A DNA stretch of 64,000 bases from Elusimicrobia bacterium GWB2_63_22 (GTDB lineage: Bacteria > Elusimicrobiota > Elusimicrobia > Elusimicrobiales > UBA9959), in NCBI GenBank assembly GCA_001799735.1, contig MGUA01000012.1, forward strand, positions 97,108 to 161,107, read 5' to 3'. The notes under the pieces are model-generated. The model saw only the letters and a program-made list of their open reading frames with translations. It did not search any database and had not been told where the DNA came from. The position numbers were made by a program, and so were the translations under genes. Below, piece by piece: positions 19,908 to 60,600 of this stretch. Within the stretch, counting starts at the first letter, position 1. Every line of letters begins with the position of its first letter.

Positions 19908-19910
19908 CCT

Positions 19911-46144: not shown

Positions 46145-46323
46145 CCCCCGCGCCCTCGTTTTCGCGGGGGGGGGGCCTGCGTTTATCAATGTAAACCCCG
46201 TCACAGTTGACCAATATCACCTTACGGGCTCTTATATTATTAACTATAATATAACTTGGTACGGAAAATCCCCTGCTGCCAGGGGATACTTTTTGCTTTC
46301 TACGGGGGCGAAAGAATAAGGCA

Positions 46324-49300
46324 ATGGGCTGCATTAACCGGTTAAAACCTTATACACGCACCGCAAGGGGAATATTCCTCCTGGCGGCGCTGGTTTTTGC
46401 CTGTTTTGCCTCCGCGGGGGCGACCGGCTTTACCGGGAAGGTCACCGGGGAGGACGGCGTCACCCCCATAGCGGGGATTTCCGTGCAGGCGGTCGATCCT
46501 AACGGCGACGCCATATTGGCCTCGGCTGTCACGGCCGGGGACGGCACTTATTCCCTTACTTCCATCTCTCCCGGCACCTATCACCTCCAGGTCGACCCGC
46601 CCGGCTACTTCCCGAGCGTCCGCAGCAGCCATACCGTGGCCTCCGGCCAGGACCTGCAGGTGAATTTCGCGCTGCAGTGGAGCGGCGAGACCTGGCGCGA
46701 CACTTTCGCCACCGATACCTGGAGCGTCTTCATCTCGGCCGACAGGAAGAGCACCAACGGCAACGTGCTGCGCTTCGGCACGGTGTCCACCGGCGGCGGG
46801 GACTATGACAGCATCCGTAAAACGGCCGCCATCAGTTACGCGTTACACCCTTACGTGACCATCCGCAACAAGTACAAGGTCAACTCCGGCACCATGGGCA
46901 ACGTCAACTTTATCGTGGACACCATGGGAGACTGGAGCAACCGGCTGATCCTGGTTAACGATTATTCGGTGTCCTGGCCCTGGCAGGAGCGCACGTATAC
47001 CATAGGCGAGGATATGACCTGGGCCTCGTTCCTGCAGGGGGACGCGGCAGGCGACGTGGACCATTATTTCGACTACCTCATTTTCCATTCCGCGGACCGC
47101 GGCTACGTGGCGGGGCAGGTGAAGACCCCGGCCGGCACGCCCCTGCCGGACACCCGGGTGCAGCTGCTCAAGGGCTCGGCTGTCATAGGCGAGGCCCTTT
47201 CCGACGGGGCGGGCAATTATTCCATCTGGGCCGCCACCTCTACGGGGGGGTACACGGTATACGCCTCAACGGTCAACGGGGCGCAGTTCAGCCAGGCTTC
47301 GGTATCCATAGGCGGCCGCGTCCAGACCACGGTGAACGTCACGCTCGACCCTTTCCCGCCGGCGGCGGTTCCCGGGGTCAGGTTCACCGCGACGACCGGG
47401 AATTCCGCTGGTGTCGCCTGGGACGCTTACGGCTATGCCGGGTACTGGATCGCTTTTTCGTCTGATCCCGCTTTCGAGGTCTGGCACGCCAGCCAGGCTA
47501 TCACGGCGGGTTCTCCTACTACTTTGGGGGTTTACAGCCTGGAGCCCGACACCACTTACTACTTCAAGGTCAAAAGCGCCGACCTGGACGACAGCTATTA
47601 TTCGACCGCGGTCTCCTCCGCCACGCCGCCGGTGCTGCCGGGGGCCGTCTCCTTCTCCGCCGTCTATATAACCAGCGCCGTGCTGCAGTGGGCGGACGGG
47701 GGGAACCCGCCGGGGACCTGGTATCAGGTAGAATACGCCATAGACGAGGGCTTCGTCTCCAACCTGGGTTTCAGCAGCGGCACGGCCCTTTCGGCCACCT
47801 TCGGGGCGCTCAACCCCAACACCACCTATTATTTCGGAGTGCGGGCCCTGGGCTTCGGCGGGCAGGATACGGCGGCTACGGTCCCGGTCTCCACTATAAC
47901 TCTGGCCGCTCCTCCCGCGGGCGAGGCCTACGCGCTGGTCGCCTCCACCGGGCTTTCTGTCTTCTGGAGCAATAACGGCAACCCGGACGGCACCCGCTAC
48001 GAGATCACCGAGGCCACCGCAGCGGCTTTCGCTACGCTCAATTATTCCAGCGTCACCCCCGGCAATTACTTCGAGGCCGGGGGCCTCCTCCCCAATACCA
48101 CGTATTATTACCGGGCGGCCGCCCTGAACGGTTCAGGGCTGCGCTCGGCCGTAACCGAGTTCGCCCCGGTGGTCACGCTTTCCGCTGTGCCGCTGCCCAT
48201 CCCCAACCCGACCTGGTCCCTGGGCCTGGTCACAGGCACTTCGGTGGAGACGTTCTGGCTGGTGAACAACAACCCTAACTATACCGAGTATTACGTCGGC
48301 GTCAGCACGGACGTGAACTTCAACGGCCTGGACTACGGCCCCCTCGCCTGGTTCGCCGCGCCCTCCTACAACGTTACCGGCCTGGAGTCGGGCCTGACCT
48401 ACCATTTCAGGGTTAAAACCAGGGACGTCCTGAACCGGTCCAGCGCCTGGCTGTACCTGGGGACCGCCCAGACAGAGGCCGGGGCGGACAATACCCCGCC
48501 GTCGGTGAACGACCTGCAGGGGGGCGACGACGCCTGGCGCGGCGCCGCCGGCGGCGCCTACATGGTCCACTTCTCAGACCTCGGTTCCGGCCTGGACAAG
48601 TTCCAGGTGCAGGTGACCTCGGGGTTGTCGGCTAACGGGATAATCGTGCACGCCTGGGCCGACGCCGTGACCGGGATAAATGCCGCCGACTACGAGCAGG
48701 ACTGGGTGCTGCCCCAGGCGGTTTTCGAAACGATACTGGAGAACGTCACCAGCTACGTCTCCGTGAAAGCTTTCGACCTGGCCGGCAATTCCACCATTTA
48801 CCCCGACGCCTTCTATGTCAGGCGCGACACTACCCCGCCTACGATAACCAGTTACGCCTCTTCCCCGGCCGGCTGGCTGGCCGCCGACCCCGGGGCGGTC
48901 TTCGACGTGGATTTTGCCGACGCCCTCTCCGGCCTTGCGCAGGTGCTCTACAGCGCCAGCAACCAGCCGGCCCTGGCCGACGCCAACGTGCTGGGCTGGA
49001 CCCCGGTGGACGCCATAGTATCGAGCCCGTCGGTAACCGCGCTCTGGGGCGTTAACTTCGGCCTCCTGGCCGACGGCGCCAGCAATTATATCAGCGTCAA
49101 GGCCGTGGACGCGGCGGGAAATTATACCGTGCTCCAGGACGTGTTCCGTATCCTCAAGAACACGGTGGGCCCGGCCGTAGCCATAGCCGCCCCGCAGGCG
49201 GGCTACGTTTCCACCGCGGCCGTCCTGTCCGGTTCGGCTTCGGCGATGAACGAGGCCTCCCCGGTGGCCGGCAGCGAGGTGGCCATACAGGAACTGACCG

Positions 49301-51030
49301 GGAGCCAGTATTACGACGGAACGGCTTTCGCCTCCGGGGCCCCGGTCTGGCTGGCGGCCTCCGGCCTGGCCTCCTGGTCCTATAACGCCTCCACCGTGCC
49401 TTTTGCGGCCGGGACGCAGTATAAAGTTTACGCGCGGTCCCGGGACGTGAACTCTTTCGTGACGCCCATCCCTTATCCCAGCGTGACCTTCCAGCTGGAC
49501 CAGGACGCCCCGACCGTCTGGGTCTCCACCCCGGCCGTCGCCTCCCTTGTCTACGCCTTCGACGCCGTGGAGGGTACAGCCGCCGACACCGGCGGCGCCG
49601 GCCTGGCCAACGCGGAGGTGTACCTGATGCGCCTGGTGGACGGGCGGTGGTGGAACTTCCAGACCGACGCCTGGGGGGATGTGCCGGTCTCCAGCGCGGC
49701 GGCCCCGGGCGCCGCCTGGGCCTTCTCGCCCGGCCTGAAGCTGCGCGGCGGTCTGGTGCACGGCCAGCAATATTACGTCGGGGGCGCGGCCAGGGACGCG
49801 GCTTCCCCGGCCAACGTTTCGGCTTTCGGCTCGGCGGGCTCTACCTTTACCTGGGTGGACGCCTATGCGCCCGAGGCGGTAGCCCAGTTCGCCCCGTCCA
49901 CGGGCACGGCCCCGGGCCGCGTCAACCTGGCCTGGACCTTCCCCGGCGACGACGGCGGCGCCTTCCCGCTCACCTTCGGCCGCTACGCCGTGCAGTACTC
50001 CACCTACCCGGAGGCGGTGTTCAGCACGCAGGCGGCGCAGGTAATGATCTCCACGGGGCTGGTGCTCGCGGCCGCGCCCCAGGCCTACACCGTGGCCGGG
50101 CTAAACCCGGCCGCCACCTATTATTTCCGCCTGTGGACCGAGGACGACGCCGGCCTCTGGTCCGGCCCCTCGCCCCTGGCCTCCACGCTGTCCGGCGAGG
50201 CCCTCGACGACATGATCTCCGGCTCGGTGAAGAACCCGGCCGGGCAGGGCATTACCGGCGTCATGGTGGAGGCCATAACCAATAGCGGCCTCGTAGTCGC
50301 CTCGGTCTATACGCTCGACGACGGCTTCGGCTCCTTCACCCTGCCGGGGCTGCCCGACGGCCTCTACCGGGTGCAGGCCACCTGGCTCGAGGACGGGTTC
50401 TCCAGCTCCATCGCCAAGGACCAGATCCCGATGGGCTACGCCGACGCCAACTTCGAACTTTCCGTGGCCTACGAACTGGCCAGCGTGTCCGGCTCCGTGC
50501 CGGCCTCCGCGCCGTCCGCCCTGCGGCCTTCCGCCGCCGGGGCCGCGGGCGTACAGCTGTGGCAGGGCACGCGCCTGATAGCTTCCGCCTCGCCCGACGC
50601 CTCCGGCAGGTTCTCCATACGCAACCTGCTGCCGGGGAGCTACACGCTCAGGGCGGCCGGGACCGACGGCGTCTGGAAGAGTTTTACCATACAGCTGGCC
50701 GGCGGCGAGGACCTGCAGGTGACGCCGCTCGGCGCGCTGCTGCGCCAGGCTTCCGCCTACGCGTACCCGAACCCGGCGCGCGGCTTTGTGAAGTTCCGGC
50801 TTTATACCGAGGTCGCCCCGGTGCGGTTCAGCCTGGCGGTCTACTCTTTGGACGGTTCGCAGGTTAAAGCGGCGGAGGAGACTTTTAGCGGCACCGGCGT
50901 CAACGAGTACCTCTGGACTTTCACCGGCGGCCGGCCGGCCAGCGGGGTGTATTTCTACACGCTGCGGCTGAAGTACCCTTTCAGCGGGGAAACCGAAAGC
51001 GTCAGGGGTAAATTCGCGGTGATAAGGTGA
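46324..51030 (+). CDS. Giant secreted surface protein: CarboxypepD_reg-like + multiple FN3-like domains + T9SS/FlgD-Ig-type C-terminal domain (1568 aa)
   Basis: Signal peptide (GIFLLAALVFACFASAGA). N-terminal GKVTGEDGVTPIAGISVQAVDPNGD...GTYSLTSISPGTYHLQV (carboxypeptidase-regulatory-like). At least five FN3-like repeats ending in ...NTTYYF.V.A. More CarboxypepD_reg-like units near the C-terminus (GSVKNPAGQGITGVMVEA..., GSYTLRA). C-terminal domain at 50755-51027. Confidence 0.85.
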   Translation: MGCINRLKPYTRTARGIFLLAALVFACFASAGATGFTGKVTGEDGVTPIAGISVQAVDPNGDAILASAVTAGDGTYSLTSISPGTYHLQVDPPGYFPSVRSSHTVASGQDLQVNFALQWSGETWRDTFATDTWSVFISADRKSTNGNVLRFGTVSTGGGDYDSIRKTAAISYALHPYVTIRNKYKVNSGTMGNVNFIVDTMGDWSNRLILVNDYSVSWPWQERTYTIGEDMTWASFLQGDAAGDVDHYFDYLIFHSADRGYVAGQVKTPAGTPLPDTRVQLLKGSAVIGEALSDGAGNYSIWAATSTGGYTVYASTVNGAQFSQASVSIGGRVQTTVNVTLDPFPPAAVPGVRFTATTGNSAGVAWDAYGYAGYWIAFSSDPAFEVWHASQAITAGSPTTLGVYSLEPDTTYYFKVKSADLDDSYYSTAVSSATPPVLPGAVSFSAVYITSAVLQWADGGNPPGTWYQVEYAIDEGFVSNLGFSSGTALSATFGALNPNTTYYFGVRALGFGGQDTAATVPVSTITLAAPPAGEAYALVASTGLSVFWSNNGNPDGTRYEITEATAAAFATLNYSSVTPGNYFEAGGLLPNTTYYYRAAALNGSGLRSAVTEFAPVVTLSAVPLPIPNPTWSLGLVTGTSVETFWLVNNNPNYTEYYVGVSTDVNFNGLDYGPLAWFAAPSYNVTGLESGLTYHFRVKTRDVLNRSSAWLYLGTAQTEAGADNTPPSVNDLQGGDDAWRGAAGGAYMVHFSDLGSGLDKFQVQVTSGLSANGIIVHAWADAVTGINAADYEQDWVLPQAVFETILENVTSYVSVKAFDLAGNSTIYPDAFYVRRDTTPPTITSYASSPAGWLAADPGAVFDVDFADALSGLAQVLYSASNQPALADANVLGWTPVDAIVSSPSVTALWGVNFGLLADGASNYISVKAVDAAGNYTVLQDVFRILKNTVGPAVAIAAPQAGYVSTAAVLSGSASAMNEASPVAGSEVAIQELTGSQYYDGTAFASGAPVWLAASGLASWSYNASTVPFAAGTQYKVYARSRDVNSFVTPIPYPSVTFQLDQDAPTVWVSTPAVASLVYAFDAVEGTAADTGGAGLANAEVYLMRLVDGRWWNFQTDAWGDVPVSSAAAPGAAWAFSPGLKLRGGLVHGQQYYVGGAARDAASPANVSAFGSAGSTFTWVDAYAPEAVAQFAPSTGTAPGRVNLAWTFPGDDGGAFPLTFGRYAVQYSTYPEAVFSTQAAQVMISTGLVLAAAPQAYTVAGLNPAATYYFRLWTEDDAGLWSGPSPLASTLSGEALDDMISGSVKNPAGQGITGVMVEAITNSGLVVASVYTLDDGFGSFTLPGLPDGLYRVQATWLEDGFSSSIAKDQIPMGYADANFELSVAYELASVSGSVPASAPSALRPSAAGAAGVQLWQGTRLIASASPDASGRFSIRNLLPGSYTLRAAGTDGVWKSFTIQLAGGEDLQVTPLGALLRQASAYAYPNPARGFVKFRLYTEVAPVRFSLAVYSLDGSQVKAAEETFSGTGVNEYLWTFTGGRPASGVYFYTLRLKYPFSGETESVRGKFAVIR
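50755..51027 (+). other. C-terminal sorting-type domain (T9SS type-A CTD / FlgD Ig-like pattern)
   Basis: AYAYPNPARGFVKFRLYTEVAPVRFSLAVYSLDGSQVKAAE...YLWTFTGGRPASGVYFYTLRL...GKFAVIR. Same pattern as 23001-23276. Confidence 0.65.
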
Positions 51031-51043
51031 CAGGAGAGAACAG

Positions 51044-52798
51044 ATGAAAACTATCTATTTCGCGGCGGTCCTGGCCGCGCTATTGCCGGCGGCGGGCTAC
51101 GCCCAGAACCTGACCCCCCAGGGGGCTTCCGTGCACGACTCGGCGGGCACCCTGCGCTCGGACGCCTCCCGTACCGGCAGCTTCACCACGGCGGAGTCCG
51201 TTACGCTGCGCCAGAGCGTGAGCAACTCCGTCACCAGCCTGAACCCCATAGTCTTCACGTTCAAGATCAAGAACCCGGCCGGGGCCGAGGTGTTCACCCA
51301 CTCCGGCAACTCCGCCCCCGGCACGGCCGGCACGGCGCAGACCCAGCTGGCCGGCATAGCCATCTCTTCTTTCTACTCCGCCCCCGGCAACTACACCTTT
51401 GTGGGGACGGCCTCCCTGGACGGCGACACCGTGACCCAGCAGGCCGTGTTCATGATCTCCAGCCCCAACATCACGCTCATCTACCCGCCCTACGGGGCGC
51501 GCGGCCTGTCCGACAAGCCGCTGACCTTCCGCTGGACGGCCAGCGGCGCCGCGCGCTACCGCGTTACCGTAGCCGAGAACGCCGGGCTCTACAACCCGGT
51601 GCACATGGCCCTGAACGCCGGGGAAAGTTACTATTCCTACCCGGCCAGCCCGGCGGAGCCGCGGGAGCAGCTGGTGGCCGACCAGGTCTATCACTGGAAG
51701 GTGGAAGGCCTGGACGGCAGCAACAACAAGATCTCCGAGAGCAGCGTGTACAACTTCTCCATGAAGTCCCTCGCCTCGGCGCAGACCCGCAACATAGCGA
51801 TAACCCTGCTCGAGCTCAGCGCGCCGATCCTGGATTTCGAAAAGCCGGTAAACATGAAGGCCACGCTGTACAACAGCGGCTCCATCACCGAATCCAATAT
51901 CGCGGTCAAGCTGTCGCTGGGGGGGATAGCCGCGCAGGATTCGCCCAAGCAGGTGCTCTCCATAGCGCCGGGGGAGAAACAGGTCCTCGCTTTCACGGCG
52001 TTCATGCCCGGCGGGCAGGAGCAGGGGCTGGCCGTGGCCTGCGCCGACCTGTTCGACGACAATATCCCGGACAACTGCAAGACCATGCTGCTGTCCAAGA
52101 GCTCCGGCGACGCCTCGGCGCCGACCGCCAGGAAGAAGCTCAGCTACGACGAGATGTTCCAGGAGATCCTCAAGCGGCTAGGCCCGGAGGCCGCCAAAGC
52201 CCTGGAGGGTTACACTTTCGAGAGCCTCACCTGCGGCGGCTGCACGCAGGATGACCTGTCGGCCATCATCGCCGCCCTGATCAGCGGCGAGGCGCAGCTG
52301 GTGGACGCCTCCGTGCTCGACGACGGCACTGGCGCGGCGCCCTCGCCCGCGGCCCAGACCGCCGCCTCCTCCGCTTCCGGCGGCGAGGCGCCCGGGGACA
52401 TCAGCGAGAGCTCCCTGGACCTGGCGCCGGTGCGGCATGAAACCCCGGGCGAATGGACCGGCTTCATGGAGCCGCCCAGCGCCAAGGCGCCCTCTTTCTT
52501 CGTGGTGCGCGACCGCAAGGAATGGCGGAAGGTCTGGAAACTCCTCTCCCCGGAGGAGGACCTGCCGGACGTGGATTTTAAGACCAAGATGGTGGTGGGC
52601 GTGGTGGCCGCCCCGCAGGACCGGGCCGAGACCGTGCGCATGCTCGGCAAGCGCAAGACGGACGAAGGAATAGCGTTTGATTACTATGTCATCGAGGCGG
52701 CGGACGGGCAGAAGCCCTCGCTGGCCGCCTATATCTTCAGGATCTACGACAGGTCGGAGGACAAAGCCGACTTCAAGCGGTTGGACGTGAAGAAGTGA
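51044..52798 (+). CDS. Secreted hypothetical protein with 'YR' beta-sandwich and CARDB-like domains (584 aa)
   Basis: Signal peptide MKTIYFAAVLAALLPAAGYA. PLTFRWTASGAARYRVTVAENAGLYNPV...VYHWKVEGLD resembles the repeats of the 329-aa protein at 18918. NIAITLLELSAPILDFEKPVNMKATLYNSGSITESNIAVKLSLGG...LSIAPGEKQVLAF looks CARDB-like. GGAGAG RBS, 13 nt after the upstream stop. Confidence 0.7.
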   Translation: MKTIYFAAVLAALLPAAGYAQNLTPQGASVHDSAGTLRSDASRTGSFTTAESVTLRQSVSNSVTSLNPIVFTFKIKNPAGAEVFTHSGNSAPGTAGTAQTQLAGIAISSFYSAPGNYTFVGTASLDGDTVTQQAVFMISSPNITLIYPPYGARGLSDKPLTFRWTASGAARYRVTVAENAGLYNPVHMALNAGESYYSYPASPAEPREQLVADQVYHWKVEGLDGSNNKISESSVYNFSMKSLASAQTRNIAITLLELSAPILDFEKPVNMKATLYNSGSITESNIAVKLSLGGIAAQDSPKQVLSIAPGEKQVLAFTAFMPGGQEQGLAVACADLFDDNIPDNCKTMLLSKSSGDASAPTARKKLSYDEMFQEILKRLGPEAAKALEGYTFESLTCGGCTQDDLSAIIAALISGEAQLVDASVLDDGTGAAPSPAAQTAASSASGGEAPGDISESSLDLAPVRHETPGEWTGFMEPPSAKAPSFFVVRDRKEWRKVWKLLSPEEDLPDVDFKTKMVVGVVAAPQDRAETVRMLGKRKTDEGIAFDYYVIEAADGQKPSLAAYIFRIYDRSEDKADFKRLDVKK

Positions 52799-52824
52799 AA
52801 ATTCGGTAACTTACGGGAGGACAT

Positions 52825-53559
52825 ATGACCAAGACAATGAAACTGATGGCGGCGGCGGCTGTGGTGGCCGCGGCGTCGCTGGCGGGTTGGGGGCAGGCCG
52901 CTTTCTGCGCGCCTAAGATAGCGGCGGTGACGGTGTATATCACCGGCGAAGTGCAGGTGAAGCGCACGGGCGAGAAAGCCTTCGCGGAGCTCAAGGTGAA
53001 CGACATGCTCTACCCCGGGGACAACATCAAGACGGGTCCCGGCGCCAGGGCGGGCCTGGTAACCAAGGGCGGAGCCGAGGTGCGCCTGAACGAGAACTCG
53101 AACTTCGAGATCTCCGGGGCGGGCAAGCTGCGCGAGATGCTTAACCTCTCGGTCGGGCAGCTGTGGACCAGGATGCTGCACAAGATGGCCAAGATCAACG
53201 TGCGCACCCCGTCGGCCGTCTGCGCCGTGCGCGGCACCGAGGCCGACATCGAGCAGCGCAGCCTCCTGACCGTCAAGGTGTACGAGGGGCACGTGGACGT
53301 GCAGAACTCGCTGGGCAAGCAGTCGCTCAAGGCGGGCCAGATGACCACCGTGGCCGGCGCCAACGCCGCGCCCGAAGCGGCCAAGGCCATGTCGGGCGGC
53401 GACGCCGGCAAATGGCAGGAAGACGTGAAGGTCAGCGACTACGACAAGTTCGTCAAACTGATGGAAGAGAGCGCCGCGTCCGGCAAGAAGCTCAAGACCT
53501 CGGTCAAGATGCCCGACGGCACCGTGAAGCAGATAGAAGGCGGCCTGAAGAAGAAGTAA
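52825..53559 (+). CDS. FecR-domain protein, exported
   Basis: Signal peptide. FecR-domain pattern GEVQVKRTGEKAFAELKVNDMLYPGDNIKTGPGARAGLVTKGGAEVRLNENSNFEI...VRTPSAVCAVRGTE...VKVYEGHVDV. GGAGG RBS. Confidence 0.8.
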   Translation: MTKTMKLMAAAAVVAAASLAGWGQAAFCAPKIAAVTVYITGEVQVKRTGEKAFAELKVNDMLYPGDNIKTGPGARAGLVTKGGAEVRLNENSNFEISGAGKLREMLNLSVGQLWTRMLHKMAKINVRTPSAVCAVRGTEADIEQRSLLTVKVYEGHVDVQNSLGKQSLKAGQMTTVAGANAAPEAAKAMSGGDAGKWQEDVKVSDYDKFVKLMEESAASGKKLKTSVKMPDGTVKQIEGGLKKK

Positions 53560-53601
53560 GCCGAAGCCGCGTCCGCGGCCGGCTTAGCCGGCCGCGGGGC
53601 A

Positions 53602-54537
53602 ATGGAGGAGCGAATGAGAGTCTTAATGCTGGCCGCCGCCCTGCTGTGGCAGGCGCCGGCCCTTAACGCCGCGGAAAGTTCCGCCGCCCAGTTCCTGAGC
53701 CTCGGTTTCGGGGCCAGGGCGCTGGGCATGGGCGAGGCCTACACCGCGGTGGCGGACGACATCTCGAGCGTCTACTATAACCCGGCCGGGCTGGCCGCGG
53801 GGGACGCGGGCAGGGAGGTTTCTTTCTCCCACGCCTGGCACGTGCAGGACACCGCGGTTTCGCAGCTGGCCTACATGCGCCGGCCGTACGCCTTTCTGGT
53901 CACCTACTTTTCGGCGGGGGACCTGGAAGGGCGCGACGACGCCGGCAGTCCCACGGGGGACTTTACGGCGCGCGACCTGGCGCTGCAGGCCTCCCGCGGG
54001 GTGAGGCTGGGGCCGCTGCAGGCGGGCGCTTCGGTCAAGCTGATCAGCCAGCGGATCAAGTCCAGCGGGGCGACGTCATTCGCCGCCGACCTGGGCCTGC
54101 TCTACCGGCCGGAGGGCTCGCCGTATTCGCTGGGCGCGGCGCTCACGAACTTCGGCACTAAAGTGAAGTTCGAGGAAGAGAGCTACCCGCTGCCGCTCAA
54201 GTTAAAGGCCGGCGCCGCCGCGGCGCTGTCCGAAGGGCGGCTGCTGCTGGCGCTGGACGCCGAGTTCCCCAACGACGGGCCGGCCGCGGCGCGGGCGGGG
54301 GCCGAGTACAAGGGCATAGAGGGTATAGCCCTGCGCCTGGGCTACAGGACGTACCCGAAGGGACAGCGGGACGCGGTGCTGGCCGAAGGGTTCGGCGGCG
54401 TTTCCGGGGTTTCGTCCATGTACGGCTTCTTCGCGGGCGTCGGGTTCGCGTATGCCGGCTTTACGCTGGATTACGCCCTGCTGCCATACGGGGACCTGGG
54501 CAGCGCGCACAGGTTCTCGCTGGGGATGAAGTTCTGA
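53602..54537 (+). CDS. PorV/PorQ-family (FadL-like) outer-membrane beta-barrel protein, copy 2
   Basis: Signal peptide (MRVLMLAAALLWQAPALNA). Family motif AAQFLSLGFGARALGMGEAYTAVADDISSVYYNPAGLA. Beta-strand pattern, ending ...AHRFSLGMKF (terminal Phe). Paralogous to 23276-24328. An alternative start lies at 53614. Confidence 0.75.
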   Translation: MEERMRVLMLAAALLWQAPALNAAESSAAQFLSLGFGARALGMGEAYTAVADDISSVYYNPAGLAAGDAGREVSFSHAWHVQDTAVSQLAYMRRPYAFLVTYFSAGDLEGRDDAGSPTGDFTARDLALQASRGVRLGPLQAGASVKLISQRIKSSGATSFAADLGLLYRPEGSPYSLGAALTNFGTKVKFEEESYPLPLKLKAGAAAALSEGRLLLALDAEFPNDGPAAARAGAEYKGIEGIALRLGYRTYPKGQRDAVLAEGFGGVSGVSSMYGFFAGVGFAYAGFTLDYALLPYGDLGSAHRFSLGMKF

Positions 54538-54649
54538 CCCGGCCCGGGATCCCCGGGCCGGCGGTCGGCTTTGAAATAAGCGCAGGAGCCACGGCTGCCG
54601 CGCATATTTGAACGCACGACGGAGTCAGCTGTTTTACGGAGGCGGTCTT

Positions 54650-57600
54650 ATGAAGAAAAACATACTCGCTATCTCTATTTTCCTGCTCGGCTGGGCGGCC
54701 CCGCTGCCGGCGGAGATCATCACCTACCAGGGCCGGCTGAAAGAAGCCAGCCTGCCCGTCAATGACAACCGCCTCTTCCTTTTTGAATTCTGCGATGACG
54801 AATCCGCCGGGGCCTGCACTGCGTCGCCCTCCGGCGCGCAGCCTTTCGCTGTGCAGAACGGTCTCTTTAAATCCACCTTCACCGCGCCCGCCGTAAATCT
54901 GACTTCCGGCCAGTGGTATCTCAAGGTGTCCGTGGCGGGCACCCCTCTGACCCCCCGCGAGCGCCTTACCGCGGTGCCGTACGCCGTTTACGCTTCCTCC
55001 TCCGCCTATTCCTCCATGTCCGTCCAGAAGACGGGGGATACCATGTCCGGGCAGCTGACCCTGGACGGCTCGACACTTACCGTTACCGGCAACGAATTCT
55101 CCGTGGGCGGTTCTACCCTGACGGTAAAATACGGAAATGTCGGCGTAGGCACGCAGAACCCTTTGGGCGCCCTGCACGTGGACCGCGCCGTTAACGCCCC
55201 GCTGCTGGTAGGCGGCCCCACCGTTTCGTACACCGCGGCGGACGCCGCCATACAGGACAGCGGGTCCCTGCTGCTGCGGTCAGCGCTGCTTGCAGGTATC
55301 GGCAGCGAGGCGGATATCGTGGCCGTAGGCAAGGTGACCGGTTGTTTTAATTCCACTCTTTCGCTGTGGACGCGTCCCGACGGCTGTGCCGGGGTAAGCC
55401 CGGTCCGCAGGATGATCGTCAACGAATTCGGCAACGTGGGCATCAGCACCTTCACTCCCCAGGCCCGCCTGGATGTGCTGGCGGCGGGCGCCTCACCGGA
55501 CGCCATCGCCCAGATCTGGCGCGATTCTTCCGGCGTCGTGGTCTCTTCCGTCAGCGCCACCGGCATGGTGATGGGCGTCAAGTTTATCGGCGACGGCTCG
55601 GGCCTTATCAACGTGGCCGCGACCACCGGCGTGGACGCGACCAAAGTGGCCAAGGCCGGGGATACCATGACCGGGCAGCTGACCTTGGACGCCTCCACGC
55701 TGACGGTCACCGGCAACGCCTTCAGCGTGTCCGGCTCCACCCTGGTGGTGGCGGACGGCAAGGTCGGTATCGGGGCCGAAGTCCCCCAGGCCAAGCTGCA
55801 CATAAGTTCCGGCGGGATGATAATAGACGGCGATGTCGCGGGGGTCATGCTGCACGTAAAAGCTCCGCCCAGCGGGACCACCACCCGCATCAGCCTGGAA
55901 GGCTCCGACAGCAACAGCTTCCAGGCCTACGAATTAAAACAGCCGAGCCGGACCTGGTGGATAGCGCAGAACCTTGGCAATTTCAGCGACGGCCGCCTGC
56001 AGATCTTCGACGCCTCCGCCTCCAATTACCGGGCCGTCTTCTTTGCCACCGGCGACATCGGGTTGGGGGGGACCGACGCGCAGACCGCCCCGGTCCTGAT
56101 GGTGAAGCCTTCCGGCCTTGTCGGCATAGGCGCGAATTCCCCCGGGGCCGCTTTGGACGTGCGGGCCCCCGGCACGATTGACATGGCGCAGATCTGGCGC
56201 GATCCCGCCGGCACCGTAGTCAGTTCCGTCTCCGTCTCCGGAGTTATGCGGGCGATACAGTTCGTTGGCGACGGCTCGGGGCTGACCAACGTGGCCGCGG
56301 CCACCGGCGTGGACGCCAGCAAGGTGGCCAAGGCCGGCGACACCATGACCGGCCAGCTGACGCTGGCCGCTTCCACGCTGACAGTTACAGGCAACGCCTT
56401 CAGCGTGGGCGGCTCCACGCTGGTAGTGGACGGCGGCAATGTCGGTATCGGCGTGGCCTCCCCCTGGTCCAGGCTTACTATAGCGGGCGGCGTCGGCAAC
56501 GAGATAGAGATCCCTTCCGCCGGCACCAACGTGCAGATCCTGGGCACCGGCTCTCCGGCCCAGTTCCAGATAGGCGGAGGCACCTCCTTCGAGGCCTTGA
56601 TCGGGGCCACTCCCCGCCTGGTCATCGACGGCGCCGGCAACACTTCCGTCAGCACCCTCGCCGCCTCCGGCAGCATCACCGCGGCGCGCTACCAGATAAA
56701 TGGCGCCAACGTGCTTGCGCTGTTGCCCGGCATAGACAGCCTGGGGGTGGGAAAGTTCGCCGGGCTTGTAAACACCGGGGACAGCAACGTGTTTCTCGGC
56801 TATGCTGCGGGTTACTACAACACTACGGCGGCCCAAAACACCTTCATCGGCTATGAGGCCGGGTATTCCAATGTCAGCGGAGGTAATAATTCTTTCCTTG
56901 GCTATAAAGCCGGAGCCTCCAACCTTACAGGCGGTAACAATTCGCTTGTGGGCTATCAGACGGCCTATTTTAACCAGACGGGTTCTGCTAACGCCATCTT
57001 CGGCAACGACGCCGGTGGTTTCGGCAGCGCGGCCTCGAACTCTTTCTCCAGTTCGACTATTGTCGGGTACAGGGGTGGTTACAACCTGACTACGGGCTCG
57101 GATAACACTTTTCTCGGCTGGCAGTCCGGATATAACGTCACTACCGGCAACGGCAATATAATCATCGGCTACGGCCAGAACGCGCAGGCCGCCGGCGCCA
57201 ACAGTTCTCTCAACATCGGCGGGGTGCTGTTCGGCGACCTGGCCGCCGGGACCATAGGTATCTCCACGGGGAACCCGCAGGCCGCGCTGGACATGGTTTC
57301 CACCGCCACGGACCCCAATGTGTACGCGCAGCTCTGGCGCAACAGCGCGGGCGTTATCGTGGGGTCGATGTCCTCTACCGGCAATATGACCGCCGTGCGT
57401 TACGCCGGCGACGGCTCCGGCCTGACCAACGTGGCGGCTACCACCGGCGTGGACGCCAGCAAGGTGGCCAAGGCCGGCGACACCATGACCGGGCAGCTGA
57501 CCCTGGCGGGCAGTTCCCTGACCATGCATACAGCCGGCGTCGTTAATTTTACCGCCGACGCGGCCGGGCATGTGGGCATAAACGGCTACCCTGACGCCGC

Positions 57601-60600
57601 GTCCGGGCTGCATATCTCGGGGACCGGCTCCTACGAAGCCGGGATCAGGCTGAACAACGGCGGCACGGTATGGAGCATGAGCAATACCGGCGGCCCGCTT
57701 TCATTCATAAAAGTGGATGGTTCCACGTACACGCCGTTCACGTTCTCCCAGACCGGAGTGCTTACGGCGGTCAGCAGCCCTGCGGGCAACAGTGAGGTCC
57801 ACGCCGACCGTTTTTACGGCAGCGGCGCTAACTTGACCGGGGTGCTGGACTCCACCAAACTTCCTCTCTCCGGGGGAACAATGAGCGGCGGTTTGATCAT
57901 AGGAGACGTGTCAGGGACGGCCTTCAGGGTGGGCGGCTCCACTCTTACCGTGACTAACGGCAGGGTCGGAATCAATACCGCCTCCCCCGCCGAGGCTCTG
58001 GATATCGGTTCCGGCAATCTGCGCCTGATGGCCGGAGGGATGCTGGAGTGGGGCAGCGCGGCTCTCTCCATTTTAGCCTCCGCCCCCGGCATGGCTTTTT
58101 ATGAAGGAGGCCAGGTGCGTCTCAACATCAGTTCCTTTGGCGGGTACACCTCCGTGGGCGCGGGCGATATTTTAGGCGTCAATATAGATACCACCTCCGC
58201 CCTGCACGTGGCGGCCAAGGCCAGCCCGGGCGCCGACGGCAGGGTGGCCGTTTTCGGCGATCTCCGCAGCAACGGTTCCGTCTCCGGCCAGTATCTGGCC
58301 TCCGGCAACTTTGAAACTACCATAGAGGGCGCGGACAGCGCGGACCTGGCCGCCGGCCTGCGCGCCGTTATCAGGCATGAGAATGCCGGGGTCGGAGTGG
58401 TTAAGAAAGCCTACGGGCTCATCGTGGATGACCTGCAGAACAGCGGGGGCACGATAGACACCACCTACGGCGTCTATATCGGAACGCAGACGGCGGGAGC
58501 GCAGGTCAATCCCCCGTACAGCCTGTACGCGGCCGACCAGGCAGCCTGGAATTATTTCGGCGGGCGCGTCGGCATCGGCACGGAGTCGCCCCAGGATATG
58601 CTGCACATGATCGGCGCCAACCCGTGGATACAGATAAGGGATACCGGCGGCACCAAGGGCGCCTCTATCGGCATGGACGTCAACAAGCTGCGCTTCGACG
58701 AATCGGGCATGGGTAACAGGATGGTCCTGGACCTCAACACTTCCCGCGTGGGCATCAACACGCTTGGCCCTAACTATACCCTGGACGTGCAGGGCGGCTA
58801 TGTTAACGCCTCGGGCGGTCTCTGCATAAACGATAACTGCGTCAGCGACTGGGGCAGCGCCGGCGTCTGGAGCAGGAACGGCTTGGTTGTGTCTCCCTCC
58901 AACGCCTCCAATAACGTGCTGATACAGTCCACGCTGACCGTGGCAGGCAACGCCTTCAGCGTGGGCGGGTCTACGCTGGTCGTCGACGCGGGAAGGGTCG
59001 GCATCGGCGTCCCGAACCCCACCGTCGCGCTGGACGTCAGCGGAGGGATAAACGCTACTACCATTTACGCGGGGAATTCCGTGTCGGCTGCCAGCATAGT
59101 GAAGGTGAACGGCGGCGGCATGGTCGCCCTGGAATCTGTGGCGGGGAACTCCAATATTTCCGCCACCGCCGCGGGCGCTAAGAACATGACCTTCACGACC
59201 GACTCGGTGGAGAGGATGCGCATAGACAGCAACGGGAGGGTAGGCGTGGGAACCGCTTTGCCGGCCTACGCGCTGCATGTTTCTTCCGGCGACGCTTCCG
59301 GCTGGAGGCCTGACGTGATGATAGAGAGTACGGCTTCAGGTACCCCGCAGCTCCTGCTGCAGTCAGGCGGGCACCAGGGCCGTATTGCGACCTCCGGCAG
59401 CAACGGCGGGACGTACATCGGCAGCATGACCAACGACTTCGTGAGCCTGCATACCAACGGCGTCGAAGTGATTCGCCTGGCTACGGACAAAAAAGTCGGT
59501 ATTGGCGCTACCTCTCCCGGAGCGCTCCTGGAGATCCGGGACAACGCCGCCGCCAATAGCTACATGTTATTGATCGGGACCGGGGCGTCCGGTTCCTTCG
59601 TAAGCATTTCGTCCATGGGCGTAGTCGGCATAGGCTACGGCAATCCTTCCACCAGTACCGTCCTGCACGCCCAGGCCGTGGCCACCAACCTCACCGCGGG
59701 CGAAGACGTGGCCGCCGGTCTTATAGGCAGCGCGCGCGCGATAGGCACCGGCCCCGAGGACGTGGCGGTGGGCGGTGACTTCCGGGCTGAAGCCGACGGC
59801 AACCAGAACCTGGCCTTCCTGGCGGGCCTGCACGCCAACGTGGAGCGCACCAGCGCCGGCACCGGCGTAATAGCCAACGCGGTGGGCCTCTATATCGACA
59901 TGCCGCGCAACGGCTCGTCCCCCGGAGGCTTCACTGATACCTACGGCATTTACATAGCCACCCAGACCTCCGGGAACCAGACCAACCTGCCGTACGCCGT
60001 CTATTCGGAGGACCAGAACGCCCGCGCCTATTTCGCGGGTAAGATGGGCCTTGGTACGGCCAGCCCCCGCTACGCGCTGGAGATCTCCAGCGCGGCCGGG
60101 AGTTCCGACCAGATGCTGGTGGTCTCCACCGGCACGGATATGGTCTTCGGCGTAAAGGGTAACGGCGAGGTCTACGGCGCCAAGTTCATCGGCGACGGTT
60201 CGGGGCTGGTCAACGTCGTTATGAACGGCGGCACTATGTCCCAGCCGCTCGTCATTAATGCGGATACGGCCGTCTATCCCTCCAATCTGGTGACTGCCGG
60301 GCTGGTCATCTCTACGTCGGGTGCGCTGCAGACCGCCGGCATGGGCAACGGCGGCATAGTCGGCAACCCGCGCGGTATCGGCGCGGTGGACCTGCAGACT
60401 AGCCGGTTAGCGGCTACCGAAGTGGCTTCCGCGGCGTACTCCGTGGTCGGCGGCGGCAAGGGGAACAAGGCGACGATTGCATTCGCGGTCGCTTCCGGCG
60501 GCAACAACAACATCGCCTCGGGCGGTTATTCTGTGGTAGGCGGCGGAGCCTCCAACACGTCCAGTAATGGCTGGACTACCGTTGGCGGCGGCTCTAGCAA

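What the first reader, a model, noticed from the sequence alone, without database searches (positions are those of the whole stretch)
46324..54537. Island 2: second, expanded 'CTD cargo + YR-domain accessory + FecR + PorV/PorQ-like barrel' module, paralogous to island 1
All genes are on the + strand with short gaps of 13, 26 and 42 bp.
- A 1568-aa protein: signal peptide, CarboxypepD_reg-like units, at least five FN3-like repeats, and a C-terminal AYAYPNP...SGVYFYTLRL...GKFAVIR domain at 50755-51027.
- A 584-aa secreted protein with the same F-x-W...A-x-YR-V...Y-x-W-K-V domain seen twice in the island-1 accessory protein, plus a CARDB-like segment.
- A FecR-domain protein.
- A second PorV/PorQ-like barrel (GARALGMGEAYTAVADDISSVYYNPAG).
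Two independent copies of the same trio in one 64-kb window argue for a functional unit rather than chance adjacency. In characterised T9SS organisms PorV is shared by all cargo. Here each cargo has a private barrel and no core T9SS component is nearby. Two readings are possible. Either these are cargo-dedicated PorV paralogues of a T9SS encoded elsewhere, or the module is a self-contained, undescribed outer-membrane export/anchoring system in which a FadL-like barrel captures a FlgD-Ig-like C-terminal domain. The FecR-domain protein could be a periplasmic adaptor or sensor.
Basis: partly seen in the sequence, partly recalled or inferred. Interest (0 to 1): 0.7.

Follow-up and report, generated by a model that had tools for sequence, protein, structure and literature searches.

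The report
Surface-protein cargo with dedicated PorV-like anchor barrel
An Elusimicrobia genome encodes giant surface proteins whose tail domain resembles the type IX secretion signal, each next to its own small PorV/PorQ-like outer-membrane barrel; this pairing recurs across a phylum where type IX secretion has not been described.

Summary
All four ORFs, the 13/26/42-bp gaps and the domain calls are real. The window comes from an Elusimicrobiales genome whose island-1 barrel is 100% identical to one in Elusimicrobia bacterium GWB2_63_22.

The arrangement is not chance. Of 98 barrel genes in 90 sequences (89 fetched loci plus the window), 58 have a CTD protein within 3.5 kb upstream on the same strand. 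These loci are mostly Elusimicrobiota, plus Desantisbacteria and Firestonebacteria MAGs. Barrel and CTD diverge together (Mantel r = 0.84). Passenger domains are swapped while CTD and barrel stay.

The barrel model is a 14-strand FadL-fold barrel, closest to Flavobacterium PorV. It passes the PorV/PorQ family model but fails the PorV and PorQ equivalog cut-offs.

One is a hypervariable fibre gene (54650-62773). The other is a second, Kelch-type cargo (62817 to the window end) whose orthologues carry the same CTD type. So the barrel is cluster-dedicated, not strictly private. FecR is dispensable in six loci. The two accessory proteins share only a common FN3-like domain.

Best reading: a cognate CTD-carrier/anchor pair, working like PorZ-PorQ or SprB-SprF. 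I could not test whether a T9SS translocon and motor exist elsewhere in the genome. This is a new variant of a known kind.

The parts
46268..46287 (+). Terminator-like hairpin with a T-run, between the upstream LUD-domain gene and the cargo gene. Probable 5' boundary of the cluster.
   Evidence: Consensus scan only. Not evidence of function.
46324..51030 (+). Cargo A: 1568-aa secreted protein with a signal peptide, 4 CarboxypepD_reg units, 5 FN3-like units and Ig-like sandwiches. Residues 1 to about 345 have no counterpart in the closest relative's cargo.
   Evidence: Orthologues sit upstream of the barrel in about 40 loci. The N-terminal region has no counterpart in L010.
50755..51027 (+). 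C-terminal Ig-like sorting/anchor domain (CTD) of cargo A. Motifs YAYPNPA ... ASGVYFY ... KFAVIR.
   Evidence: TIGR04183 scores 29.3 bits (cut-off 23). It also matches the CTD of PorU (NF033707 positions 955-1093). Homologous to the island-1 CTD family (hhalign 95.5%).
51044..52798 (+). Accessory protein, 584 aa, with a signal peptide. Three beta-sandwiches (aa 23-138; FN3-like 143-239; CARDB-like 251-351), a disordered linker, and a C-terminal alpha/beta domain (470-579). Four conserved cysteines (C333 and C345 invariant, C397 and C400 nearly invariant).
   Evidence: Family seen only in proteins whose source names are Elusimicrobia (94 hits). About 96 clusters at E <= 1e-30 in 1.84 billion representatives. 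AF2 pLDDT 75.7. CARDB matches 34 of 42 orthologues. Present in every orthologous locus that has upstream sequence.
52825..53559 (+). FecR-domain protein, 244 aa. It has a signal peptide but no anti-sigma or transmembrane part, and a Lys-rich C-terminal tail.
   Evidence: PF04773 scores 51.1 bits. Weaker hits to Leptospira Lsa33/LipL45 and to the LapA retention module. The N-terminal Cys is not conserved, so it is not a general lipoprotein. Absent in L008, L031, L034, L035, L042 and L045.
53602..54537 (+). Compact 14-strand PorV/PorQ-family outer-membrane barrel, 311 aa, with an N-terminal plug-like segment.
   Evidence: NF033709 scores 161.6 bits (cut-off 90). PorQ scores 110.9 < 220 and PorV 59.4 < 250. 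PDB PorV 6H3I_F matches at E = 3e-8. AF2 pLDDT 92.5 and pTM 0.85. The best fold match is PorV 8GL6_F (TM 0.70/0.60), then FadL/TbuX/TodX.
54537..54567 (.). GC-rich inverted repeat (GACCCGGCCCGGGATCCCCGGGCCGGCGGTC) between the barrel stop codon and the fibre gene.
   Evidence: Read directly from the sequence. Function not tested.
54650..62773 (+). Fibre-like giant protein, 2707 aa from ATG 54650 (GGAGG ribosome-binding site upstream). It has a signal peptide, a conserved N-terminal ~160 aa, repeated 'GDTMTGQLTL ... VGIG' units and a UspA1/YadA-like head segment. It has no CTD and no YadA anchor.
   Evidence: It follows the barrel within 27-135 bp, or overlaps it, in more than 30 loci, including the 44-46% barrel subfamily. 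UspA1 3PR7 matches at E = 2.6e-20. No Pfam, NCBIfam or PHROG family. Only 55-69% identical to the closest relative, against 96% for the barrel.
62817..64000 (+). Cargo B (5' part only; it runs off the window). Signal peptide followed by Kelch-like repeats.
   Evidence: Translation. It is 52% and 40% identical to the N-termini of the 1531- and 1525-aa proteins of L037 and L032. Those proteins end in the same CTD type (...KFA[VI]IR), and their C-terminal 1000 aa are 38% identical to cargo A. The L007 orthologue has Kelch and Por_Secre_tail hits.
18918..19907 (+). Island-1 accessory protein, 329 aa. Conserved N-terminal domain plus two FN3-like units.
   Evidence: No family hit. Orthologues of 327-333 aa sit in the same position in three other genomes.
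19911..23279 (+). Island-1 cargo, 1122 aa. M6 metalloprotease, FN3 units and a CTD (...GKFFLIW).
   Evidence: TIGR03296 scores 211 bits. FlgD_ig scores 26.3 (cut-off 27). Weak hit to the PorZ CTD at E = 8e-4. In orthologous loci the passenger is a papain-like C1 peptidase or has no assigned domain, while the CTD is kept at 61-65% identity.
23276..24328 (+). Island-1 PorV/PorQ-family barrel, 350 aa. Its start overlaps the cargo stop codon.
   Evidence: NF033709 scores 134.6 bits. It is 31% identical to the island-2 barrel. It is 100% identical to a protein of Elusimicrobia bacterium GWB2_63_22.

Best explanation
**What it is.** Island 2 is the core of a conserved, Sec-dependent surface-protein gene cluster of Elusimicrobiales. 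The gene order is cargo A, accessory, FecR-like, barrel, fibre, cargo B.

**Proposed mechanism.**
1. The small PorV/PorQ-family barrel is the cognate outer-membrane carrier/anchor for the cluster's cargo proteins.
2. The cargo's C-terminal ~90-aa Ig-like domain is homologous to the T9SS type A CTD. It docks non-covalently on the barrel's extracellular face.
3. This holds the long FN3/Ig stalk and its variable head on the cell surface. It is the way PorQ holds PorZ, PorV holds PorU, and SprF/PorP hold type B cargo in Bacteroidota.
4. The accessory and FecR-like proteins are periplasmic or envelope assembly/adaptor factors. They would be loosely analogous to PorE in the PorE-PorP-PG1035 complex. 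FecR is optional.

**Shown here.**
- Homology of the CTD and of the barrel to their T9SS counterparts.
- The barrel fold.
- Conserved adjacency, co-divergence of barrel and CTD, and passenger swapping.

**Inferred, not shown.**
- Physical CTD-barrel binding.
- Retention of the CTD without cleavage.
- Location and roles of the accessory and FecR-like proteins.
- The route across the outer membrane. I lean towards a route that does not use a canonical SprA/PorKLMN machine. T9SS is reported as confined to Bacteroidota or the FCB group, while these pairs occur in Elusimicrobiota, Desantisbacteria and Firestonebacteria MAGs. I did not test this.
For: **Family and fold.**
- The barrel passes the PorV/PorQ family model.
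- Its confident model (pLDDT 92.5) is closest to PorV in the SprA complexes, then to FadL channels.
- The CTD passes TIGR04183.

**Adjacency.**
- Cargo directly upstream of distant barrels passes TIGR04183 in all seven cases where it was detected among the eight cargos scanned (26-36 bits, cut-off 23; no hit for the L070 cargo).
- The CTDs of seven of these eight cargos hit the C-terminus of PorZ (E down to 1e-24; the L087 cargo did not).
- The barrels score best against PorQ.
- Of 98 barrels, 58 have a same-strand CTD protein within 3.5 kb upstream, and 19 have one within 300 bp.
- Tandem cargo-barrel pairs occur in L078, L082 and L084.

**Co-divergence.**
- Barrel identity tracks the identity of the adjacent CTD: Mantel r = 0.84, and 0 of 999 permutations reached this value.
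- Paralogous pairs within one genome are 24-43% identical in both partners. Orthologous pairs are mostly 64-96% identical in both partners (one L078 pair: barrel 65%, CTD 32%).

**Passenger swapping with a constant CTD and barrel.**
- Island 1 carries M6, C1 or no assigned catalytic domain in different genomes.
- Island 2 carries 1200-aa to 5900-aa and 7900-aa proteins that share the C-terminal 430-1250 aa.
- Distant loci carry GH113, subtilase, NHL and lectin passengers.

**Other.**
- The products of all five complete genes and of the partial sixth start with signal-peptide-like N-termini, and no energy-coupling protein is encoded in the cluster (sequence).
- Published precedents for CTD proteins anchored on partner barrels: PMC5562754, PMC9143113, PMC10994853.
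Against: - No binding or structural test of a CTD-barrel complex was possible.
- The barrels fail the PorV and PorQ equivalog cut-offs and are about 60-90 residues shorter than PorV. The loops that bind the CTD in PorV may therefore be missing.
- Forty of the 98 barrels had no detectable upstream CTD protein. Some of these lie at contig ends. A 44-46% identity subfamily instead has a giant gene directly downstream, and its C-terminus was out of reach.
- The fibre gene has no CTD yet is linked to the barrel at least as tightly as the cargo, so the barrel may serve it as well, or instead.
- The Mantel test is inflated by shared species phylogeny.
- The loci were found by starting from barrels, so the fraction of CTD proteins that have a partner barrel is unknown.
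Confidence: 0.6

Rival explanations
1. The barrels are cargo-dedicated carrier paralogues of a complete canonical T9SS encoded elsewhere in the genome (SprA/Sov translocon, PorKLMN motor and hub, possibly PorU/PorZ). Cargo crosses the outer membrane through SprA and leaves bound to its own barrel.
For: - The CTD and the barrel are true homologues of T9SS parts.
- In Bacteroidota, type B cargo uses dedicated carriers encoded next to it (PMC9143113, PMC10994853).
- T9SS genes are normally scattered, so their absence from a 64-kb window means little.
Against: - A T9SS was detected only in Bacteroidetes among 1,528 diderm genomes (PMC4793230), and it is described as FCB-specific (PMC12398890).
- Full-text searches found no report of a T9SS in Elusimicrobia.
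- No T9SS core family appears among the window genes scanned. None appears in the precomputed Pfam lists of nine flanking regions.
Confidence: 0.3
2. The barrel is itself the outer-membrane translocator for its neighbour, in a two-partner-like system. The CTD targets the unfolded cargo to the barrel and the polypeptide is threaded out through it.
For: - Cargo and barrel genes are tightly coupled, with stop/start overlap in island 1 and many other loci.
- The cluster encodes no other channel and no energy source.
- T5SS shows that small barrels can export large passengers.
Against: - The model is a 14-strand FadL-type barrel with an N-terminal plug and no POTRA domain.
- Characterised members of this fold carry small hydrophobic molecules or act as carriers, not as protein channels.
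- One barrel would have to export proteins of up to about 7900 aa.
Confidence: 0.1
3. The barrel is mainly the partner of the downstream fibre protein, acting as its anchor or assembly site. The CTD cargo genes are co-regulated neighbours.
For: - The fibre gene follows the barrel within 27-135 bp, or overlaps it, in more than 30 loci, including a subfamily without an upstream CTD gene.
- The fibre has a trimeric-autotransporter-like head but lacks an anchor domain of its own.
Against: - Island 1 and many distant loci have a cargo-barrel pair with no fibre gene.
- In FecR-less loci the fibre gene lies upstream of the cargo and an unrelated 640-aa gene follows the barrel.
- The barrel co-diverges with the CTD.
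Confidence: 0.15
4. The barrel is an ordinary FadL-like uptake channel. It is co-located with surface enzymes that generate its substrate, in the manner of a polysaccharide-utilisation-locus, without any CTD contact.
For: - The fold matches FadL, TbuX and TodX.
- Several partner cargos are hydrolases: M6, C1, S8 and GH113.
Against: - Cargo A has no catalytic domain.
- Passengers vary from proteases to mannanase to lectins, while the CTD and barrel are the constant, co-diverging parts.
- Sequence and fold are closer to PorV/PorQ than to FadL.
Confidence: 0.05

Closest known systems
PorQ-PorZ and PorV-PorU sub-complexes of the Porphyromonas gingivalis T9SS attachment complex (PMC5562754)
   Same: - A surface protein is held on the cell by a PorV/PorQ-family barrel.
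- The Elusimicrobial barrels score best against the PorQ model.
- Partner CTDs repeatedly match the C-terminus of PorZ or PorU.
   Different: - The barrels are below the PorQ and PorV equivalog cut-offs.
- The partners are diverse adhesin- or enzyme-like cargos, not PorZ or PorU.
- Cargo and barrel genes are adjacent and multiplied per genome.
- The phylum lies outside the FCB group.
- Extra accessory, FecR-like and fibre genes are present.
Type B CTD cargo with cognate PorP/SprF-like carrier barrels (SprB-SprF; PG1035-PorP-PorE; PMC9143113, PMC10994853)
   Same: - The logic is the same: each cargo is encoded next to its own barrel, which anchors it.
- A periplasmic partner (PorE) is part of the known complex. 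It is a possible analogue of the accessory or FecR-like protein.
   Different: - The CTD here is type A-like (TIGR04183 passed; CHU_C/type B mostly below cut-off, passed only by the L078 and L084 GH113 cargos).
- The barrel belongs to the PorV/PorQ family, and no PorP/SprF-family hit was returned for it.
- PorE (TPR, beta-propeller, OmpA_C) is unrelated to the proteins here.
PorV, the general type A carrier of the T9SS (6H3I, 8GL6; PMC10994853)
   Same: - Best structural match (TM 0.70/0.60, E = 3e-15) and best sequence match in the PDB.
- PorV binds CTDs through its extracellular loops.
   Different: - PorV is one shared shuttle for all type A cargo and works at the SprA lateral gate.
- The barrels here are 311-350 aa against 367-402 aa for PorV.
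- They are multiplied and sit next to cargo genes.
- No SprA is known in this phylum.
Treponema UPF0164 / FadL-like outer-membrane proteins (Pfam PF03687)
   Same: Pfam UPF0164 is passed by both barrels (25.2 and 24.8 bits, cut-off 21.4).
   Different: The match covers only the N-terminal ~70-90 residues. No CTD-cargo pairing is known to me for the Treponema family (own knowledge, not tested).

Membership tests
PorV/PorQ family (NCBIfam NF033709) | Whole-protein HMM score at or above the curated cut-off (90 bits) | tested here: met
   161.6 bits for the island-2 barrel and 134.6 bits for the island-1 barrel.
PorV/PorQ family (NCBIfam NF033709) | 14-strand FadL-type barrel fold like the solved PorV structure | tested here: met
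   AF2 pLDDT 92.5 with 14 long strands. Top PDB matches are PorV 8GL6_F and 6H3I_F (TM 0.69-0.70), ahead of FadL/TbuX (about 0.58).
T9SS PorV (equivalog NF033710) | Score at or above 250 bits | tested here: not met
   59.4 and 40.7 bits.
T9SS PorQ (equivalog NF033711) | Score at or above 220 bits | tested here: not met
   110.9 bits for both barrels. Only the N-terminal two-thirds align.
T9SS type A C-terminal sorting domain (TIGR04183 / PF18962) | C-terminal domain passing the family HMM cut-off | tested here: inconclusive
   - Cargo A passes TIGR04183 (29.3 vs 23) but not PF18962 (16.9 vs 27).
- The island-1 cargo passes neither. FlgD_ig scores 26.3 against 27. Its CTD family is homologous to that of cargo A (hhalign 95.5%).
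- Among eight cargos next to distant barrels, seven pass TIGR04183 (26-36 bits; no hit for L070). L084 and L087 also pass PF18962.
T9SS type A C-terminal sorting domain (TIGR04183 / PF18962) | CTD cleaved by the PorU sortase and cargo linked to anionic LPS | not testable with these tools
   Needs proteomics. No PorU-like gene was seen in the window.
Canonical type IX secretion system | Genome encodes SprA/Sov, PorK/L/M/N (GldK-N), PorT, PorU and PorZ | not testable with these tools
   - No whole genome was accessible.
- No such family was found in the scanned genes of the 64-kb window.
- None appears in the precomputed Pfam lists of nine flanking regions.
- The literature places T9SS in Bacteroidota/FCB only (PMC4793230, PMC12398890).
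FecR domain (PF04773) | Domain HMM at or above the cut-off (24 bits) | tested here: met
   51.1 bits at aa 66-157.
FecR-type anti-sigma factor / TonB-dependent signalling | N-terminal cytoplasmic anti-sigma domain plus a transmembrane helix, with a partner ECF sigma factor and a TonB-dependent transducer | tested here: not met
   - The protein is 244 aa with only a signal peptide before the FecR domain.
- There is no sigma factor or TonB-dependent receptor in the cluster.
- An ECF sigma gene is present upstream in L001 only.
Type B CTD / PorP-SprF pairs | CHU_C/type B CTD on the cargo and a PorP/SprF-family barrel | tested here: not met
   CHU_C scores 16.8 against 27 on the island-1 cargo and gives no hit on cargo A. 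No PorP/SprF-family hit was returned for the barrels, which are PorV/PorQ family.
Two-partner secretion (T5bSS) | Omp85-type 16-strand TpsB barrel with POTRA domains, and a TPS domain on the cargo | tested here: not met
   No such Pfam or NCBIfam hits. The barrel is a 14-strand FadL-type fold.
Trimeric autotransporter adhesin (for the fibre gene) | YadA-like head/stalk plus a C-terminal YadA anchor barrel segment | tested here: not met
   A head-like segment matches UspA1 3PR7 at E = 2.6e-20. No YadA_anchor or any other Pfam/NCBIfam family was found on the 2707-aa protein.

The most novel reading that the evidence does not exclude
Elusimicrobiota, and the Desantisbacteria and Firestonebacteria MAGs with the same pairs, may lack SprA and the PorKLMN motor altogether. 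The CTD-cargo plus PorV/PorQ-like barrel pair, with lineage-specific accessory and FecR-like proteins, would then be a self-contained, undescribed way to place and hold giant proteins on the outer membrane. It could be the ancestral 'signal plus carrier' core from which the Bacteroidota T9SS was later built by adding a translocon and a motor.
Probability: 0.35. Interest if true: 0.85.

Novelty: new variant of a known kind. Interest (0 to 1): 0.66.

Why it matters
**What is known.** T9SS biology rests on a CTD signal recognised by a carrier barrel. Shared (PorV) and dedicated (PorP/SprF) carriers are described only in Bacteroidota.

**What is new here.** Type A-like CTDs are hard-wired to their own PorV/PorQ-like barrels in tens of Elusimicrobiota species and in neighbouring candidate phyla. 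Passengers swap freely between proteases, glycosidases, lectins and giant adhesins.

**Consequences.**
- If the T9SS core is present in these genomes, the known range and modularity of T9SS widens beyond the FCB group.
- If the core is absent, this points to a minimal CTD/carrier system. The origin of T9SS would become directly testable.
- It gives a practical rule for predicting the surface proteome of an almost uncultured phylum.
- It offers a compact two-gene cassette (about 90-aa tag plus about 310-aa barrel) that could be tried for surface display.

Tried and rejected
- **Exact-sequence look-up of the barrel** found nothing. The source was instead identified through homologues.
- **A weak NCBIfam hit of that domain to dentilisin PrcB** (E = 0.02) was not reproduced. 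Pfam found nothing for the isolated domain or in 42 orthologues. I dropped it.
- **FecR protein against PDB sequences:** nothing significant.
- **CTD against PDB sequences:** only E = 1 to a Flavobacterium CTD.
- **Fibre protein:** no Pfam, NCBIfam or PHROG family. The first PHROG attempt used the wrong frame.
- **Literature searches** for T9SS, PorV or FecR in Elusimicrobia or related phyla returned nothing relevant. The E. minutum genome paper is not held.
- **An anti-sigma/TonB signalling role for FecR** was considered and rejected. There is no anti-sigma domain, transmembrane helix, sigma factor or TonB-dependent receptor.
- **A complex prediction via a linker fusion** was considered. I did not run it, because the tool returns no coordinates or interface scores.
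- **My iterated HMM for the fibre N-terminus** drifted into the internal repeat. I use it only for adjacency, not as a domain definition.

Full report
**1.

The four ORFs lie exactly at 46324-51030, 51044-52798, 52825-53559 and 53602-54537. All are on the + strand with gaps of 13, 26 and 42 bp.

- **Cargo.** It carries four CarboxypepD_reg stretches and Pfam fn3 hits. A repeat HMM trained on the protein itself resolves five FN3-like units at aa 344-433, 434-525, 526-619, 623-716 and 1196-1289. Its last ~90 residues (nt 50755-51027) pass NCBIfam TIGR04183, the T9SS type A sorting domain (29.3 bits, cut-off 23). They also align to the CTD of PorU. They stay below the Pfam PF18962 cut-off.
- **FecR protein.** The 244-aa protein passes PF04773 with 51 bits.
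- **Barrel.** The 311-aa protein passes the PorV/PorQ family model NF033709 with 161.6 bits against a cut-off of 90. It fails the PorQ (110.9 < 220) and PorV (59.4 < 250) equivalog models.
- **CARDB.** The hit is sub-threshold in this copy but present in 34 of 42 orthologues.
- **Island 1.** It lies at 18918-24328. It holds a 329-aa accessory protein, an M6 metalloprotease with a FlgD_ig-like CTD, and a 350-aa PorV/PorQ-family barrel.

**2. What is and is not paralogous between the islands**

- The barrels are clear paralogues (31% identity, E = 3e-26).
- The two CTD families are homologous by profile-profile comparison (95.5% probability, E = 1.4e-8).
- That domain type occurs up to 35 times in tandem in unrelated giant proteins. 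It is therefore no marker of a shared accessory function.
- Island 1 has no FecR gene, and its gene order is accessory-cargo-barrel.

**3. Source organism**

The named homologues of the island-2 barrel and the accessory, and nearly all of those of the island-1 barrel, are Elusimicrobia/Elusimicrobiales MAG proteins. The island-1 barrel is 100% identical to a protein of Elusimicrobia bacterium GWB2_63_22. No gene scanned elsewhere in the window belongs to a T9SS core family. The scanned genes are FeoB, RNase D, an MFS transporter, an alpha-2-macroglobulin, a pullulanase, peptidases and similar.

**4. The arrangement is conserved far beyond chance**

*Contexts read from public contigs.*

| Locus (call) | Barrel identity | Gene order |
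|---|---|---|
| L001 (13) | 78% | 1188-aa FN3/CarboxypepD_reg cargo, 577 aa, FecR, barrel |
| L007 (24) | 73% | 1198-aa cargo, 579 aa, FecR, barrel |
| L003 (14) | 57% | 5895-aa giant, 698 aa, FecR, barrel |
| L008 (25) | 59% | 1320-aa cargo, 580 aa, barrel (no FecR) |

*Scan of GTDB species genomes.* A scan with a barrel alignment found 454 relatives. The best 80 loci are mostly Elusimicrobiota. They also include Desantisbacteria, Firestonebacteria, Poribacteria, Endomicrobiales and one Nitrospirota-labelled MAG.

*HMM scan of all ORFs in 90 sequences (89 loci plus the window).* I used HMMs built here for barrel, accessory, FecR and CTD.
- About 35 loci have the full cargo-accessory-FecR-barrel order.
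- Six loci lack only FecR.
- Of 98 barrels, 58 have a same-strand CTD protein within 3.5 kb upstream. In 19 of these it lies within 300 bp, as in island 1.
- Tandem cargo-barrel pairs occur in L078, L082 and L084.
- A Desantisbacteria locus (L081) even has CTD, accessory-like, FecR-like and barrel genes.

*Island 1.* Its trio is likewise kept in three other genomes.

**5. The constant parts are the CTD and the barrel; the passenger is exchangeable**

- In island-1 orthologues the M6 protease is replaced by a papain-like C1 peptidase with a lectin domain, or by a protein with no assigned catalytic domain. The CTD stays 61-65% identical.
- In island-2 orthologues, proteins of 1200, 5895 and 7903 aa share only the C-terminal 430-1250 residues with cargo A.
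- Cargos next to distant barrels carry GH113, subtilase, NHL-propeller and F5/8-lectin passengers.
- Seven of the eight such cargos scanned pass TIGR04183 (26-36 bits; no hit for L070). Seven of the eight CTDs hit the C-terminus of PorZ (E down to 1e-24; not L087).
- Barrel identity tracks the identity of the adjacent CTD across 55 non-redundant pairs (Mantel r = 0.84; 0 of 999 permutations reach it).
- Paralogous pairs within a genome are 24-43% identical in both partners. Their orthologues elsewhere are mostly 64-96% identical in both (one L078 pair: barrel 65%, CTD 32%).
- The Mantel value is inflated by shared phylogeny. The paralogue comparison shows that pairs duplicate and diverge as units.

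**6. The barrel**

The alignment-based AF2 model is confident (pLDDT 92.5, pTM 0.85). It shows 14 long strands after a short helical plug-like N-terminus. Its best PDB matches are F. johnsoniae PorV in the SprA translocon complexes (8GL6_F, 6H3I_F; TM 0.69-0.70, E down to 3e-15). FadL, TbuX and TodX follow at TM about 0.58. PorV is also the only PDB sequence hit (E = 3e-8). At 311 aa it is markedly more compact than PorV.

**7. The other two small proteins**

- **Accessory protein.** It belongs to a modest family. The word-indexed search gave 94 hits, and all that carry a source name are Elusimicrobia. About 96 clusters reach E <= 1e-30 among 1.84 billion representatives.
- **Its model.** Three beta-sandwiches, a disordered linker and a C-terminal alpha/beta domain. 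Four cysteines are conserved (C333 and C345 invariant, C397 and C400 nearly invariant), which suggests an oxidising compartment. Fold search gave only generic Ig/FN3/macroglobulin-domain matches.
- **FecR-like protein.** It has a signal peptide and no anti-sigma or membrane segment. Its N-terminal Cys is not conserved. It gives weak hits to Leptospira surface FecR-domain proteins and to the LapA retention module. It is missing from six intact loci.
- **Roles.** Their roles are inferred only. I take them to be envelope assembly or adaptor factors. PorE in the PorE-PorP-PG1035 complex (PMC9143113) is a functional, not homologous, precedent.

**8. The cluster is larger than the finding**

*Fibre gene.*
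- A 2707-aa protein (true start ATG 54650 with a GGAGG site) follows the barrel.
- A gene of this family starts 27-135 bp after the barrel, or overlaps it, in more than 30 loci. This includes the 44-46% barrel subfamily that lacks an upstream CTD gene.
- It has a conserved N-terminal ~160 aa, internal 'GDTMTGQLTL' repeats and a segment matching the UspA1 head (3PR7, E = 2.6e-20).
- It has no CTD, no YadA anchor and no family assignment.

*Comparison with the closest relative (L010, about 91-93% nucleotide identity in the flanks)*:

| Gene | Protein identity to L010 |
|---|---|
| Barrel | 96% |
| FecR-like | 95.5% |
| Accessory | 92% |
| Cargo A | 87%, with ~345 N-terminal residues that have no counterpart in L010 |
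| Fibre | 55-69%, mosaic |

*Cargo B.*
- Forty-four bp after the fibre gene, a sixth + strand gene begins at 62817 and runs off the window.
- It is the orthologue of 1525-1531-aa Kelch-propeller proteins.
- The C-terminal 1000 aa of the L032 orthologue are 38% identical to that locus's cargo A orthologue. These proteins end in the same CTD type...KFA[VI]IR.
- The island-2 barrel therefore has at least two cargos of its cognate CTD type in the cluster.

**9. How it most likely works**

*Shown.*
- The products of all five complete genes and of the partial sixth begin with signal-peptide-like N-termini.
- The cluster encodes no ATPase, motor or large channel.
- The CTD and the barrel are homologues of the T9SS signal and carrier.
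- They are adjacent, co-diverging and independent of the passenger.

*Inferred.*
- The barrel binds the CTD on its extracellular side and retains the cargo non-covalently on the surface.
- This is how PorQ retains PorZ and PorV retains PorU (PMC5562754), and how SprF/PorP retain type B cargo (PMC9143113; the carrier concept is in PMC10994853).

*Unresolved.*
- The route across the outer membrane.
- T9SS was detected only in Bacteroidetes in a survey of 1,528 diderm genomes (PMC4793230) and is described as FCB-specific (PMC12398890).
- I found no paper reporting it in Elusimicrobia.
- I could not search a whole Elusimicrobial genome for sprA/porKLMN. The choice between 'dedicated carriers of a T9SS elsewhere' and 'self-contained system' therefore remains open. 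I put it at roughly 0.3 against 0.35, with the remainder on other or mixed routes.

**10. Verdict**

The finding is real, statistically robust and larger than described. Its parts belong to known superfamilies: type A-like CTD, PorV/PorQ family and FecR domain. They are not orthologues of PorV or PorQ. The hard-wired type A-like CTD/PorQ-like barrel cassettes, together with their phylum, their accessory genes and the linked fibre, are not described in the literature I could search. I classify it as a new variant of a known kind, with interest of about 0.66.

Noticed in passing
window 54650-62773: The fibre gene after the barrel is hypervariable. It is 55-69% mosaic protein identity to the closest relative, against 96% for the barrel, and nucleotide alignment breaks down between about 55.15 and 62.84 kb. 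It carries a UspA1/YadA-like head but no membrane anchor and no known family.
   Followed up: partly
window 62817-64000: A further + strand gene runs off the window end. It has a signal peptide and Kelch-like repeats and is the orthologue of 1525-1531-aa proteins that end in the same CTD type as cargo A. The ORF listing does not show it because it has no stop codon in the window.
   Followed up: yes
window 46324-47360 (cargo A aa 1 to about 345): The N-terminal region of cargo A (two CarboxypepD_reg units flanking an unassigned ~150-aa domain) has no counterpart in the closest relative L010, whose cargo is 1243 aa. This looks like recent head-domain gain or replacement.
   Followed up: partly
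window 12385-18360: A 1991-aa bacterial alpha-2-macroglobulin lies just upstream of island 1, and lies upstream of the island-1 cassette in L090 and L091. This places a protease trap next to a secreted-protease cassette.
   Followed up: no
window 24318-25535 (- strand): A GT4 glycosyltransferase converges on and overlaps the end of the island-1 barrel gene. The same convergent neighbour is present in the three other genomes examined. Whether it modifies the cargo or LPS is unknown.
   Followed up: no
window 30061-31620 (- strand); L005 6331-7790: A 519-aa protein with weak CsgG/FlgO/LpoB-like hits lies about 6 kb from island 1 and is syntenic in L090 and L091. A CsgG-like plus GNA1162-like pair sits directly upstream of a distant barrel in L005. 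This could hint at an outer-membrane channel, or it could be coincidence.
   Followed up: no
L003 13364-17888: A cluster of FliG_C-domain protein, MotA/ExbB, two MotB/OmpA and a TPR protein lies 2.4 kb downstream of the barrel cluster in a 57%-identity locus. It is a non-flagellar-looking stator-like set and is not seen in the window.
   Followed up: no
accessory protein aa 95-135 (window about 51326-51448): A profile of the accessory family weakly matches the CnaB2 domain of FbaB, the SpyCatcher parent (E = 0.0014). It may only reflect a shared sandwich fold. No isopeptide residues were checked.
   Followed up: no
proteins P0318, P0324, P0326: Distant relatives of the island-1 barrel are fused to N-terminal TPR repeats (476-573 aa). 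These are PorV-like barrels with a built-in periplasmic adaptor.
   Followed up: no
proteins P0384, P0403, P0416: The FN3-like 'YR' domain of the accessory proteins occurs as 28-35 tandem copies in giant proteins of 3800-5200 aa.
   Followed up: no
L001 1477-2956: An ECF sigma factor plus two small genes is inserted between the conserved coiled-coil gene and the LUD-domain gene, upstream of the cluster, in GWA2_61_42 only. It is absent from the window and from L007.
   Followed up: no
L081 5867-7759 (Desantisbacteria): In the Desantisbacteria version of the cluster, a 630-aa protein with a sub-threshold SlpA beta-barrel-domain hit (33 vs 35 bits) lies between the FecR-like gene and the barrel.
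   Followed up: no
window 44778-45434 and 45519-46144: A 218-aa secreted coiled-coil protein sits immediately upstream of the cluster in many orthologous loci. The LUD-domain gene after it was seen in the loci with gene calls (L001, L002, L007). Whether they are co-regulated with the cluster or merely syntenic is unknown.
   Followed up: partly
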